A DNA stretch of 64,000 nt from Escherichia coli (lineage in GTDB: Bacteria; Pseudomonadota; Gammaproteobacteria; Enterobacterales; Enterobacteriaceae), in the NCBI RefSeq assembly GCF_044324785.1, contig NZ_CP172128.1; one strand, 5' to 3'. The position numbers were made by a program. Each line of letters opens with the position of its first letter. Within the stretch, counting starts at the first letter, position 1. This document shows positions 26,201 to 29,200 of this stretch, one piece after another.

Positions 26201-29200
26201 TTTCTCCGCCGGCGCTTCCCCGTACGGAAGTCCGGCATCTCATTCACTAACTATGGAGATTATGCCATGAGACCATCAATTATCTTCGCAACCGCCGAGT
26301 ATGTAAAGCGTCTGCGTGAAGAGTGCCGGCGGGAGAACAAACCCCTGCACCGCCATACCCGCTTCAGACGCCAGGAACTGGCACCGGATGAGATTAACCC
26401 GGACGTCCTGGCGATGGGCGGTCATATCGCCAGACGCTGCAGTGAGCGGAAGCGGGTGCGTATCCCCGCCATGAAAGTCAGCGAATGGGGCCACCTGCTC
26501 CGCGCGCTTGAAATTGAACGGGTCTGCCACTGATTACCCCTTGCCGTCTGCCTGTGCAGGCGGCAGGATACGTTCAGACATCTCACCAGGAGGAACCGTG
26601 AGTAAGAAGAAAAACACCACAACGCCCACGCCGCATGATGCTGCGTTCCGGTCGTTCCTGGCGAATCCCGACGTCGCCAGAGATTTTCTGGAACTGCATC
26701 TTCCGGCGGAGTACCGGCAGTTGTGCGACCTGTCCACGCTGAAGCTGGAACCCGCCACCTTTGTTGAGCCGGACCTGCATCAGTACGCCAGCGATATCCT
26801 CTGGAGTGTGAAAACCACCGGGGGTGAAGACGGCTATGTTTATACGCTCATCGAGCACCAGAGCACCGAAAATCTGTACATGCCTTTCCGCATGATACGT
26901 TACAGTGTGGCGGCGATGCAGAGACATCTGGAGCAGCACAAAACATTGCCACTGGTGATTCCGGTGCTGTTCTATCATGGTGAGCGCAGCCCGTACCCGT
27001 ACAGCATGAACTGGCTGGACTGTTTTGAGGATCCGGCGCTTGCGGCTAAAATATACACAAAGCCGTTTCCGCTGGTTGATATCACTGTCGTTGATGACAA
27101 TGAAATCATGAACCATCGCCGGATGGCCGCACTGACGCTGCTGATGAAGCATATCCGCCATCGTGACATGATGGAGCTGCTGGACAAACTCCCGCAGGTC
27201 ATGGTGGAAATTTCAGACGAGCAGGTGCGTGTTCTGATTCATTACATCGTTAACGCAGGGGACTCTGTATCACCGGAATTTATGCGGGCGCTGGCTGAGC
27301 GTCTGCCGCAGCATGAGGATAAACTGATGACTATTGCCGAACGTCTTGAGCAGCAAGGAATACAGAAAGGAATACAGCAGGGAATACAGCAGGGAATACA
27401 GCAGGGAATACAGCAGGGAATACAGCAGGGAATACAGAAAGGCCGCATGGAGGAGAAGCAGGATATTGCGCGTCAGCTTCAGAAAACGGGAATGCCATCT
27501 GCACAAATCTGTCAGATCACCGGACTTTCCGAAGCTGAACTGAAGAACATCACTCACTGATGAGAACCACAAAGCCCGGCAAAATGCCGGGTTTTTTTGT
27601 CAGCAGGAGCAGAGCAAACAGCATGACGATTGCAGAACGTCTTGAGCAAAAAGGTCGCCAGGAAGGAGCGCTTGAAAAAGCCCTGGCCATTGCGTGCCAG
27701 CTTCAGAAAATGGGGATGACGCCGGAGCAGATTAAGCAGGCTACCGGACTGTCCGAAGCTGAACTGAAAAAAATCATTCACTGATGAGAGCATCACAGCC
27801 CGGCAGAATGCCGGGCTTTTTTGCCAGCAGGGGCAGAGCAGTATGACTATTGCAGAACGTCTTATACAGAAAGGTTTCGACGAGGGTTTTAAACAAGGTT
27901 TTAAACAAGGGGCTCTTGAAGTGGCGCGGGAAATAGCCTGCCGGCTGCGGGATATAGGCTGGCCGCCGGAACGGATTCAGGAGGTCACGGGACTTTCCGG
28001 TGAAGAACTGAAAAAGCTGTTTCCTGATGAGCAGTAGCCTGGCATTCAGCCAGGCTGTGAATCACCGCTCACACATCCTCTGCCGTTTCCCCCAGTTCAT
28101 TTTCCAGTCGCCTGATGATATCTGCCTTACGCATCCCCTGCATGTGAGGCAGCAGGTCACGGACTGAAAGAGCCTGGGTGGTCCTCCAGACGGTGACGTC
28201 CACCTGTTCCGCATTTTCCCAGGCGTGCCATGTTCTCTGCGTCACGCCAAATTCTCTGGCCGCTTTTTCGCGTGACCAGAGCATGCTTTTTCGCCAGATT
28301 CGCAGTTCCCAGCCGGTCATAAAACACCTTTGAAAAAGTGAAAAAACTTCACTTTATTTTATCATCATAATCATCAAATCAGCGCGATAAATAAGTGTAA
28401 AAAAATGAAGAAATTTCACTTTTTTTTGCTTGTAAATGTCGTGCGGTTTTCTCTGTTTTCACCTGTGCGGGAGTGGTGTGCCAGTGACCACCACATGCCA
28501 TTGTTGTGCCGTCGTTTTTCTTCAGTCGCGCCGTATGCGGCGCTCCCTGCACACCTTACGGTGTGTAAGGCCACTGCGCCTGATGGCGCAGCTGTCTCTG
28601 CCTGTCTGCCGCCGCACTGCGGCCTGTTCTCCGCAGACGGACTTTCCGGGGGTACATACATGACCACATCCCGTTTCAGTCGTCCAGGGGAGAGATGTAC
28701 CAGCCACAAAACTTTTTGCCGCAGGCGTCAAAAACTTTTGCGTCTGCCCCCGGACAACTGCCCCGTGACGTGGTGAGCGTCCCCCGTCGGAAAGGTCCAC
28801 TGCGGGGAAATCCCCGAAGACCCGGACGGCAGAAGGAGCTTCGCTCCTCCGGGAAATGACCTGGCTGACCCGGCAGTCGTGACGATGAGGAGACAATGTG
28901 ATGAATCAGACTTTACCCACTGCTGACCTGAATACTGCCGGCACGACAGATGTTATTCCGTCTGTGGCTATCGACCGCATCATCGCGCAGCGTAACGAAG
29001 GTATTGCACTGTTCATGCAGGCGATGGAATGCCTGGCGACAGCGCGCAAGATTCTGCTCGATGCGTCAGGTGATATTTTTCTTTACGGGTTTGAAGACTG
29101 CGTGACTGATTCCGTTCGTCGCATAGATAAACCGGAAGAAGCGAAAAGGAATATCACCCGTCTTGCCGACCGGAAAATCTGGGAGCGCCTGATGACAGAT

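What the first reader, a model, noticed from the sequence alone, without database searches (positions are those of the whole stretch)
28069..28440. Lone opposite-strand HTH gene with a repeat-containing operator region inside the leading region
Every other leading-region gene is on the plus strand. This 83-aa HTH protein is on the minus strand, convergent with the rpn small-ORF array, with short GTGAA..TTCAC repeats in its upstream region. It may be a local repressor controlling the rpn cassette or adjacent genes.
Basis: inference. Interest (0 to 1): 0.35.

Follow-up and report, generated by a model that had tools for sequence, protein, structure and literature searches.

The report
Aca2-like autorepressor in plasmid leading region
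This is a real, conserved small DNA-binding repressor gene (IncI "YgeA") with two palindromic operators in its own promoter, placed on the strand that can be read only after an incoming conjugative plasmid becomes double-stranded; it is an ordinary kind of regulator in an interesting place.

Summary

Its upstream region carries two 21-bp palindromes, AAAGTGAA-N5-TTCACTTT: O1 at 28335-28355 and O2 at 28402-28422. These are the only such sites in the window, and no further good match was found in the rest of the closest complete plasmid.

Homologues of 35-53% identity in other Enterobacterales plasmids carry the same AAGTG-N9-CACTT palindrome. It lies 31-35 nt before their ATG, directly after a conserved TAAAAT, often with a second copy about 56 bp upstream (22 of 32 loci; 140-fold enrichment).

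In the loci where relaxase and leading genes could be recognised, the gene lies 1.8-4.8 kb from oriT, opposite to the leading genes and beside a large ssDNA-promoter hairpin.

Best reading: a dimeric autorepressor expressed only after complementary-strand synthesis, possibly also blocking double-stranded-phase transcription into the first-entering operon. Control of the rpn cassette is not supported.

The family is already catalogued, uncharacterised, as Samuel et al. 2024 family 22. It is a new member of a known kind.

The parts
28069..28320 (-). ygeA (IncI nomenclature) coding sequence: 83-aa Aca2-like Xre-family HTH protein (WP_000148285.1 in the matching record)
28325..28330 (-). Shine-Dalgarno AAGGTG, 4 nt before the ATG
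   Evidence: read directly from the sequence
28335..28355 (.). Proximal operator O1: perfect palindrome AAAGTGAA-N5-TTCACTTT. It sits between the -10-like hexamer and the ribosome-binding site, so it covers the inferred transcription start.
   Evidence: the same position (-31 to -35 from the ATG) in most of the homologous loci that carry the motif
28356..28361 (-). Inferred -10 hexamer TAAAAT of the ygeA promoter, preceded by TG-n as in an extended -10
   Evidence: consensus TtaAAat immediately 5' of O1 in 27 distinct upstream regions; simple promoter scoring. No experimental start site is available.
28402..28422 (.). Distal operator O2: AAAATGAA-N5-TTCACTTT (1 mismatch here; a perfect palindrome in the IncI-type relative L018), centred 67 bp from O1
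   Evidence: a second site at about 56 bp in other lineages
28338..28365 (+). Candidate leading-sense sigma-70 promoter (GTGAAA-16-TATCAT) with its -35 inside O1. It would read through O2 and ssi1 towards DUF4942. Weak evidence.
   Evidence: the only promoter-like hit on either strand in 27900-29000; present in the IncI-type variant L013, with a comparable antisense promoter-like match in L005, but not family-wide
28525..28860 (+). ssi1: class-1 (Frpo-type) single-stranded-DNA promoter element. The hairpin forms in the transferred (minus) strand and drives plus-sense transcription of the oriT-proximal gene.
   Evidence: homology to the two other copies at about 18837-19334 and 25191-25686; ssDNA fold z -7.95; weak match to F Frpo1; ssi1-3 described in PMC12672017
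28898..29749 (+). Divergent neighbour and first-entering leading gene: DUF4942 (YdiA/YgfB, methyltransferase-like), a possible second target
   Evidence: Pfam DUF4942 E 9.5e-50; Samuel et al. family 24, median position 1 from oriT
28039..28057 (.). GC-rich hairpin GCCTGGC-attca-GCCAGGC between the convergent stop codons of ygeA and the last rpn-tail small ORF. No T-run on either side.
   Evidence: read directly from the sequence; the terminator scan did not call it

Best explanation
ygeA encodes a small Xre-family HTH protein whose DNA-binding domain is most like that of the anti-CRISPR-associated repressor Aca2. It most likely binds as a dimer to the two 21-bp palindromes in its own upstream region.

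O1 lies directly downstream of the conserved -10 hexamer and over the inferred transcription start, so occupancy shuts off ygeA (negative autoregulation). O2, 67 bp upstream (about 56 bp in other lineages), is a second site for the same protein.

The coding strand of ygeA is the transferred strand. Its template therefore exists only after complementary-strand synthesis in the recipient. The protein is thus a 'late', dsDNA-dependent product, unlike the surrounding genes driven by ssDNA promoters.

Its operators sit at the upstream edge of the ssDNA-promoter hairpin (ssi1) that drives the first-entering operon. The likely second job is to keep dsDNA-templated, leading-sense transcription from this AT-rich region into ssi1 -> DUF4942 switched off once the plasmid is established.

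Shown here: gene reality, HTH fold, operator conservation and position, and conserved placement relative to oriT in the loci that could be mapped. Inferred: DNA binding, dimerisation, autorepression, late timing. Speculative: control of the DUF4942 operon.
For: Protein
- Purifying selection: dN/dS 0.056.
- AF2 pLDDT 90.8.
- Family profile against PDB: best hit Aca2, E 1.5e-6.
- A linker-fused pseudo-dimer folds with pTM 0.78.

Operators
- Only two matches in the window. Outside the window, the closest complete plasmid holds only one weak 3-mismatch match.
- 22 of 32 homologous loci from other Enterobacterales carry AAGTG-N9-CACTT within 200 nt upstream. That is 36 sites in 5.8 kb against 16 in 362 kb elsewhere, a 140-fold enrichment.
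- The proximal site lies at -31 to -35 from the ATG in most loci. TAAAAT is conserved directly 5' of it.
- Inner half-site bases differ between protein subgroups: GTGAA with TQRTWHAWEN, GTGCA with xLRxYKxYE, and GTGAC/GTGTC mostly with SLRTYKRYE.

Placement
- In at least 12 loci the order is nikB(-) nikA(-) mobC-like(+) ... HTH(+) ... psiA/psiB/parB/ssb/ardA(-).
- The intergenic DNA next to the operators folds into large ssDNA hairpins: z -7.95, -5.9, -9.6 and -6.6.
- The distal operator is retained next to the hairpin even where cargo has been inserted between O1 and O2 (a toxin-antitoxin cassette in Yersinia ruckeri), in Yersinia, Rahnella and Enterobacter plasmids.
- A solo TAAAAT+operator sits beside a second hairpin 5 kb away in a Pluralibacter plasmid.

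Timing
- Leading genes are transcribed from the transferred strand. Opposite-strand families cannot be (PMC11541004).
- In F, oriT-proximal leading DNA becomes double-stranded last (bioRxiv 10.64898/2026.01.09.698686).
Against: - There are no binding, expression or start-site data. The -35 region is poor and not conserved.
- The candidate leading-sense promoter overlapping O1 is found only in some lineages, so control of DUF4942 rests on position alone.
- ssDNA promoters are already inactive in dsDNA (PMC12672017), so the need for a repressor there is not obvious.
- Operator spacings of 56 and 67 bp are not whole helical turns. Cargo insertions between O1 and O2 argue against obligatory cooperativity.
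- Ten of 32 homologous loci lack the motif at up to 1 mismatch.
- Pfam HTH scores are below the gathering thresholds.
Confidence: 0.65

Rival explanations
1. Positive-negative switch, like the controller (C) proteins of restriction-modification systems. Binding at the distal site O2 first activates a promoter, either ygeA itself or leading-sense transcription towards the methyltransferase-like DUF4942 gene. Binding at O1 then represses at higher concentration. The result is a timed pulse rather than simple autorepression.
For: - Two operators of unequal quality: O1 is perfect and O2 has 1 mismatch in this window.
- O2 is centred roughly 55-65 bp upstream of the inferred start, upstream of where a -35 would be.
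- The divergent gene is methyltransferase-like according to Samuel et al..
- The -35 is poor, which is usual for activator-dependent promoters.
Against: - C-boxes are adjacent sites with a different consensus; here the sites are 56-67 bp apart.
- No endonuclease gene is nearby.
- In other IncI plasmids O2 is a perfect palindrome, so no consistent affinity hierarchy is visible.
- Cargo insertions between O1 and O2 leave ygeA with only O1.
Confidence: 0.12
2. An antitoxin-type or protein-sequestering HTH. The main role of the protein would be to neutralise a partner protein, with promoter binding serving only to autoregulate. Candidate partners are Rpn, DUF4942 or a host factor.
For: Structural and sequence neighbours include HipB, HigA2 and MqsA. 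The gene lies next to Rpn, a toxic nuclease family, and next to small ORFs resembling the Rpn tail.
Against: - No co-transcribed partner: the gene is monocistronic and convergent with its 3' neighbour.
- Neighbours on both sides vary between lineages: DNA methylase, hok, psiA or ardA on one side; DUF4942, DUF945 or DUF5983 on the other.
- The only conserved partners are the operators and the hairpin.
Confidence: 0.08
3. Repressor of the rpn cassette, acting on the rpn promoter or through convergent transcription.
For: Adjacency and convergent orientation in IncI-type plasmids. ygeA and rpn also stay together in the rearranged Salmonella Infantis plasmid L013.
Against: - No operator-like sequence upstream of rpn or at its ssi element.
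- Several homologues with the same operator architecture have no rpn nearby.
- The two operators lie on the far side of ygeA from rpn.
Confidence: 0.04
4. A regulator with distant targets, either on the host chromosome or on co-resident plasmids. The local sites would serve only for autoregulation.
For: Stand-alone Aca2-like proteins such as YdiL have been proposed to act at distant sites (PMC8434428). Host chromosomes were not scanned here.
Against: Outside the 200 nt upstream of the gene, the motif falls to near-background density in 362 kb of flanking plasmid DNA. The good outside matches are all next to ssDNA-hairpin elements.
Confidence: 0.08

Closest known systems
Aca2 (anti-CRISPR-associated repressor, Pectobacterium phage ZF40; PDB 7VJO/7VJQ/7B5J; YdiL/SO3848 fold family)
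   Same: - A small HTH encoded inside an anti-defence gene island.
- Two inverted repeats in the promoter/5'-UTR region, consistent with autorepression after an early burst (PMC6765145).
   Different: - 83 aa with two C-terminal helices, instead of about 116-125 aa with an alpha/beta dimerisation domain.
- No Pfam hit beyond the generic HTH models.
- Operator AAGTG-N9-CACTT, not TTCG-N6/8-CGAA.
- Not downstream of an acr gene in an operon: it is monocistronic and on the opposite strand to the anti-defence genes.
Samuel et al. [quoted passage not shown]
   Same: 2333 members, median position 2 from oriT, strand -1. It is flanked by family 24 (DUF4942, position 1), family 20 (RpnE-like, position 3) and family 18 (RpnB, position 4). 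This is exactly the layout here.
   Different: That table only catalogues the family; the aca6 label comes from 3 of 2333 members. No operators, mechanism or function were described in the text and supplements I searched. The representative sequence WP_151333485.1 was not compared directly.
Restriction-modification controller (C) proteins (C.AhdI, C.Esp1396I, C.BclI)
   Different: No linked endonuclease, no C-box consensus, and operators 56-67 bp apart rather than adjacent.
Xre-type type II antitoxins (HipB, HigA2, MqsA C-terminal domain)
   Same: HTH fold and palindromic operators that autoregulate.
   Different: No adjacent co-transcribed toxin gene.
Repressors of leading-region or establishment genes in other plasmid groups (ArdK of IncN pKM101; KorA/KorB of IncP). 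Recalled from memory, not tested here.
   Same: Plasmid-encoded repressors whose absence in the recipient allows zygotic induction of establishment genes.
   Different: Unrelated protein families and operator sequences as far as I recall. Those systems act on ordinary dsDNA promoters of the anti-restriction genes themselves. Here the neighbouring genes have ssDNA promoters, and only local operators were found.

Membership tests
Xre / Cro-C1 HTH superfamily (Pfam HTH_3, HTH_31) | Score at or above the Pfam gathering threshold | tested here: not met
   HTH_31 23.5 bits against a cut-off of 27; HTH_3 16.8 against 23. Significant E-values, but sub-threshold.
Xre / Cro-C1 HTH superfamily (Pfam HTH_3, HTH_31) | Five-helix bundle with the helix-turn-helix at helices 2-3 | tested here: met
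   [not shown]
Xre / Cro-C1 HTH superfamily (Pfam HTH_3, HTH_31) | Binds a palindromic operator as a dimer | not testable with these tools
   Indirect only: conserved palindromes and a linker-fused pseudo-dimer with pTM 0.78.
Aca2 family (YdiL-like) | N-terminal HTH domain homologous to Aca2 | tested here: met
   [not shown]
Aca2 family (YdiL-like) | C-terminal alpha/beta dimerisation domain (total length about 116-125 aa) | tested here: not met
   The protein is 83 aa. The alignment to Aca2 stops at residue about 52. The model has only two further helices and no strands.
Aca2 family (YdiL-like) | Encoded downstream of an anti-CRISPR gene in one operon | tested here: not met
   Monocistronic. 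No same-strand upstream gene; the neighbours are convergent and divergent.
Aca2 family (YdiL-like) | Operator with TTCG-N6/N8-CGAA core | tested here: not met
   The operators here are AAGTG-N9-CACTT. The Aca2 sites are taken from PMC6765145.
Type II toxin-antitoxin antitoxin (HipB/HigA/MqsA type) | Adjacent, co-transcribed toxin gene | tested here: not met
   No same-strand neighbour in the window. Neighbours vary among 32 homologous loci.
Restriction-modification controller (C) protein | Linked endonuclease/methylase pair and adjacent C-box operators | tested here: not met
   No endonuclease is annotated nearby. The divergent DUF4942 gene is only methyltransferase-like. The operators are 67 bp apart.
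Samuel et al. 2024 leading-region family 22 (HTH, opposite strand) | Position about 2 from oriT, opposite strand, next to DUF4942 and Rpn families, about 2300 members | tested here: met
   The layout in the window matches the supplementary table. 1984 plasmid records carry the protein at 90% identity or more. The representative sequence was not compared directly.
F-plasmid YgeA (Frpo1-driven leading protein) | Sequence homology to F ygeA and location downstream of Frpo1 on the leading strand | tested here: not met
   F ygeA is an unrelated 96-aa plus-strand protein. tblastn of the HTH against F 52-68.5 kb gives nothing better than E 0.11. F has no operator motif. The shared name is a coincidence.

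The most novel reading that the evidence does not exclude
The gene may be a strand-encoded timer for plasmid establishment. It would be a conserved Aca-like repressor that can be made only once the oriT-proximal leading DNA has become double-stranded. Its operators are tied to the upstream edge of ssDNA-promoter hairpins rather than merely to its own promoter.

Three observations point that way. The distal operator is kept beside the hairpin after cargo insertions. A solo operator lies beside a second hairpin in another plasmid. Operator arrays repeat every ~56 bp.

Under this reading it would actively close the zygotic-induction window of the first-entering operon. It could do so by blocking ds-phase or cruciform-dependent promoter activity, or by acting at the ss/ds junction where complementary-strand synthesis stalls. 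A further, weaker possibility follows from Aca2: the protein might also bind the O1 palindrome as an RNA hairpin in its own 5' UTR.
Probability: 0.2. Interest if true: 0.7.

Novelty: new member of a known kind. Interest (0 to 1): 0.42.

Why it matters
IncI-complex and related MOBP plasmids are major carriers of resistance genes. How their leading region is switched on from single-stranded DNA is now being worked out; how it is switched off, or kept off, is not.

This gene is present in about 2000 sequenced plasmids at 95% identity or more. Relatives occupy the same place across many Enterobacterales genera. It is one of the very few leading-region genes that cannot be read from the incoming strand.

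The operators defined here give a direct handle for experiments: EMSA, reporter fusions, and operator or gene knock-outs followed by early-conjugation RNA-seq. These would show whether the plasmid encodes its own off-switch for the first-entering operon. If the protein turns out to be only an autoregulator, the finding is routine.

Tried and rejected
- Homology to F-plasmid ygeA: none. The shared name is a coincidence.
- Extra operators near rpn, ssi2, ssi3, nikA/oriT or the tra/pil genes: none in the window. The rest of the closest complete plasmid has only one weak 3-mismatch match, inside a metabolic gene.
- Known RNA families in 25000-30500: none at E up to 0.1.
- Toxin-antitoxin pairing: no partner gene. 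The toxin-antitoxin cassette seen in Yersinia-type loci is an insertion with its own palindromic operator-like repeat.
- CRP-like site: in the IncI operator the GTGA/TCAC cores are separated by 7 nt rather than CRP's 6, and relatives use GTGCA. Rejected by reading the sequence, with the CRP consensus from memory.
- ssi1 homology next to the distant homologues: not detectable by blastn. Those intergenic regions nevertheless fold into comparably stable ssDNA hairpins, so they are probably other promoter classes.
- Conserved -35 element, or a family-wide divergent promoter: not found.
- IncL/M homologues (pCTX-M3, pOXA-48-size plasmids; 31.6% identity) lie in a different context, an operon with a tyrosine recombinase and parMR. 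pCTX-M3 lacks the motif, so these were not used for inference.
- Phage homologues are few (14 records) and uninformative.
- The RNA-seq supplements of PMC12672017 are not held, so expression of this gene in pESBL transconjugants could not be checked.
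Full report
**What is in the window.** The window matches an IncK2/Z (IncI-complex, MOBP, MPF_I) E. coli plasmid at 100% over the queried 1.1 kb. About 2000 plasmid records match that query at 90% identity or more. The annotated neighbourhood is a classical leading region: klcA, ssb, parB, psiB, psiA, ardA, pndC, rpn, DUF4942, a mobC-like gene, then nikA/mobA and the NikB-type relaxase. The leading genes lie on the plus strand and point towards oriT, at roughly 30200-30400. The transferred strand is therefore the window's minus strand, as in F and as stated for leading regions generally (PMC11541004).

**The gene.** The ORF 28069-28320 (-) has an ATG start preceded by AAGGTG and encodes 83 aa. 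It is annotated as a helix-turn-helix transcriptional regulator (WP_000148285.1). Some sources call it YgeA. It is a real gene: against an 86%-identical variant from a Salmonella Infantis plasmid, synonymous sites are saturated (dS about 1.4) while dN is 0.08, giving dN/dS 0.056. F-plasmid ygeA is unrelated; F has neither a homologue nor the operator motif.

**The protein.**
- Pfam gives only sub-threshold HTH_31 and HTH_3 hits. NCBIfam gives nothing meaningful.
- An exhaustive HMMER search of 1.84 billion representatives found just 79 proteins at E up to 1e-3, many of them fragments. The family is small.
- An AlphaFold2 model built on 32 family members is confident (pLDDT 90.8) and has five helices.
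- The family profile's best hit among all PDB sequences is Aca2 (E 1.5e-6), but only over residues 1-52.
- The C-terminal part is two helices, not the Aca2 alpha/beta dimerisation domain.
- A linker-fused tandem copy folds with pTM 0.78. That is consistent with a homodimer, but it is an indirect test.

**The repeats are operators.** Two palindromes lie upstream: O1 at 28335-28355, AAAGTGAA-N5-TTCACTTT (perfect), and O2 at 28402-28422 (one mismatch), 67 bp apart.
- They are the only matches in the 64-kb window; 0.21 are expected.
- Outside the window, the remaining parts of the closest complete plasmid add only one weak 3-mismatch match inside a metabolic gene.
- Homologues at 34-53% identity in plasmids of Enterobacter, Salmonella and E. 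albertii, and in metagenomes, each carry AAGTGnA-N5-TnCACTT palindromes upstream of their start.
- A scan of one genome per species returned 32 loci: 31 from 15 named Enterobacterales genera and two unclassified isolates, plus one Bradyrhizobium.
- 22 of these 32 have AAGTG-N9-CACTT (up to 1 mismatch) within 200 nt upstream. Nearly all proximal sites lie at -31 to -35 from the ATG. A second site is common at about -88 to -101, and Buttiauxella has a third at -144.
- Motif density is 140-fold higher in those 200 nt than in the other 362 kb of the same loci.
- Aligning 27 distinct upstream regions on the proximal site gives the consensus TtaAAat directly 5' of AAGTGCAATtatTGCACTT. This looks like a conserved -10 hexamer, which would put the transcription start inside O1.
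- The variable inner half-site bases differ between protein subgroups: GTGAA with TQRTWHAWEN, GTGCA with xLRxYKxYE, and GTGAC/GTGTC mostly with SLRTYKRYE.
- All this is the signature of an autorepressor operator. It is inference; no binding data exist.

**Conserved placement.**
- In at least 12 of the 32 loci, homologues of the window's own proteins give the same order: nikB(-), nikA(-), mobC-like(+), then the HTH gene(+) 1.8-4.8 kb further on, then psiA/psiB/parB/ssb/ardA(-).
- The same holds in two PLSDB plasmids examined by annotation. The gene is consistently opposite to the leading genes and close to oriT.
- The genes on either side vary: DUF4942, DUF945 or DUF5983 on the oriT side; rpn-tail ORFs, a DNA methylase, hok, psiA or ardA on the other.
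- What stays constant is the DNA next to the operators, a large hairpin-forming element. In the window it is ssi1, one of three class-1 (Frpo-type) copies. In three relatives the corresponding intergenic DNA folds with z-scores of -5.9, -9.6 and -6.6.
- Two observations suggest the distal operator belongs with the hairpin rather than only with the ygeA promoter. First, in Yersinia ruckeri, Rahnella and Enterobacter plasmids, cargo has been inserted between O1 and the distal operator (a toxin-antitoxin cassette in Y. ruckeri). The distal operator survives next to the hairpin even where the flanks differ. Second, in a Pluralibacter plasmid a solo TAAAAT+operator lies beside a second hairpin of the same class 5 kb away, with no HTH gene attached.

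**Mechanism.**
- Most likely, YgeA is a dimeric repressor that binds O1 and O2 and shuts off its own promoter.
- Its mRNA has the sense of the transferred strand, so it cannot be transcribed until the complementary strand is made. In F, the oriT-proximal leading DNA is the last leading DNA to be converted, 120-180 s after entry. YgeA is therefore a late product, whereas its neighbours are expressed from ssDNA promoters within minutes and then decline.
- A plausible second role is to block dsDNA-templated, leading-sense transcription from the AT-rich operator region through ssi1 into DUF4942.
- The only sigma-70-like site found on either strand in 27900-29000 is a plus-strand GTGAAA-16-TATCAT at 28338-28365, whose -35 lies inside O1. 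That promoter is not conserved across the family, so this step is speculative.
No operator lies there, and rpn is absent next to many homologues.

**Relation to what is known.**
- Supplementary Table 1 of Samuel et al. [quoted passage not shown] It sits between family 24 (DUF4942, position 1) and the Rpn families at positions 3-4. By layout this is the present gene, so its existence, enrichment and odd orientation are already recorded.
- I found no paper that describes its operators, autoregulation or function.
- It works like an Aca protein: a small HTH in an anti-defence island with paired inverted repeats. It fails the Aca2 membership tests on domain architecture, operator sequence and operon position.
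- It is not a toxin-antitoxin antitoxin, because it has no partner gene. It is not a C protein, because there is no endonuclease and no C-box.

**Verdict.** This is a new, well-defined member of a familiar class of small autoregulators. Its interest comes from its conserved position and strand in the leading region of very common resistance plasmids.

**Limits.** There are no experimental data on binding, start sites or expression. The promoter assignments are consensus-based in AT-rich DNA. The dimer model could not be inspected at coordinate level. Host chromosomes were not scanned for operators.

Noticed in passing
window 27560-28037 (+), with hairpins at about 27572-27598 and 27797-27824: Two small ORFs follow rpn: one of 74 aa (or 53 aa from the internal ATG at 27623) and one of 64 aa. 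Both are tandem copies of the Rpn C-terminal tail (MTIAERLxQKG...GLSxxELKK). The first ORF, and the rpn gene before it, are each followed by a GC hairpin plus T-run. They resemble the small intragenic Rpn antitoxins recalled from the literature, here as free-standing genes.
   Followed up: partly
window about 27340-27430 (inside rpn, 26598-27560): The Rpn protein contains a run of GIQQ/GIQKG repeats (QQGIQKGIQQGIQQGIQQGIQQGIQQGIQKG) just before its C-terminal tail. This points to a short in-frame tandem DNA repeat that may vary in copy number between plasmids.
   Followed up: no
window 18837-19334, 25191-25686, 28525-28860: There are three copies of the class-1 (Frpo/ssi) ssDNA-promoter element. 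The copy next to ygeA lacks the GC-rich left part shared by the other two. Minus-strand 'hypothetical protein' ORFs annotated inside these elements in public records (about window 18825-19202, and the equivalent of 28379-28552) are probably spurious.
   Followed up: partly
window 17215-17533 and 24171-24490: A second repeat pair (92-94% identity) lies just upstream of klcA (about 17551) and ardA (about 24508). It fits the 'class 2' ssDNA promoters reported upstream of klcA and ardA in pESBL (PMC12672017).
   Followed up: no
window 29835-30176 (-): The 113-aa gene next to oriT is labelled 'molybdopterin-guanine dinucleotide biosynthesis protein MobC' in RefSeq, which is almost certainly a name-collision misannotation. 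Its homologues are always on the same strand as the HTH gene and opposite to the leading genes in the related plasmids.
   Followed up: partly
L021 7157-7980 (Yersinia ruckeri); also L025, L043, L044, L037: A RelE/HigB-like toxin plus Xre antitoxin cassette, with its own palindromic operator-like repeat, is inserted between the proximal and distal YgeA-type operators (read in L021). The distal operator is kept directly beside an intrinsic-terminator-like hairpin that faces the leading operon. L044 and L037 have different sequence at this position. The O1-O2 spacer therefore looks like a cargo insertion hot spot.
   Followed up: partly
L026 13025-13055 (Pluralibacter sp. plasmid contig): A solo TAAAAT + AAGTGCAGTTTTTGCACTT operator with no HTH gene attached lies next to a second ssDNA-hairpin element and upstream of a 460-aa gene, 5 kb from the plasmid's own ygeA homologue.
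   Followed up: partly
L003 (pCTX-M3 14670-14918) and L011 (Klebsiella plasmid): Distant homologues (31-34% identity), present in more than 1600 IncL/M-type and Klebsiella plasmid records, sit in a different context. They lie in or at the head of an operon with a tyrosine recombinase and parMR. In pCTX-M3 the gene is followed by a gene annotated as 'restriction endonuclease'. The L011 copy has a different palindrome, AAAATGTTCA-N4-TGAACATTTT.
   Followed up: no
window versus NZ_CP100531.1: The first 200 bases of the window were not found in the fetched part of the otherwise identical plasmid record. The two end-anchored coordinate mappings differ by about 2.7 kb. The window therefore comes from a close relative with at least one indel, or an IS difference, outside the region studied.
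   Followed up: no
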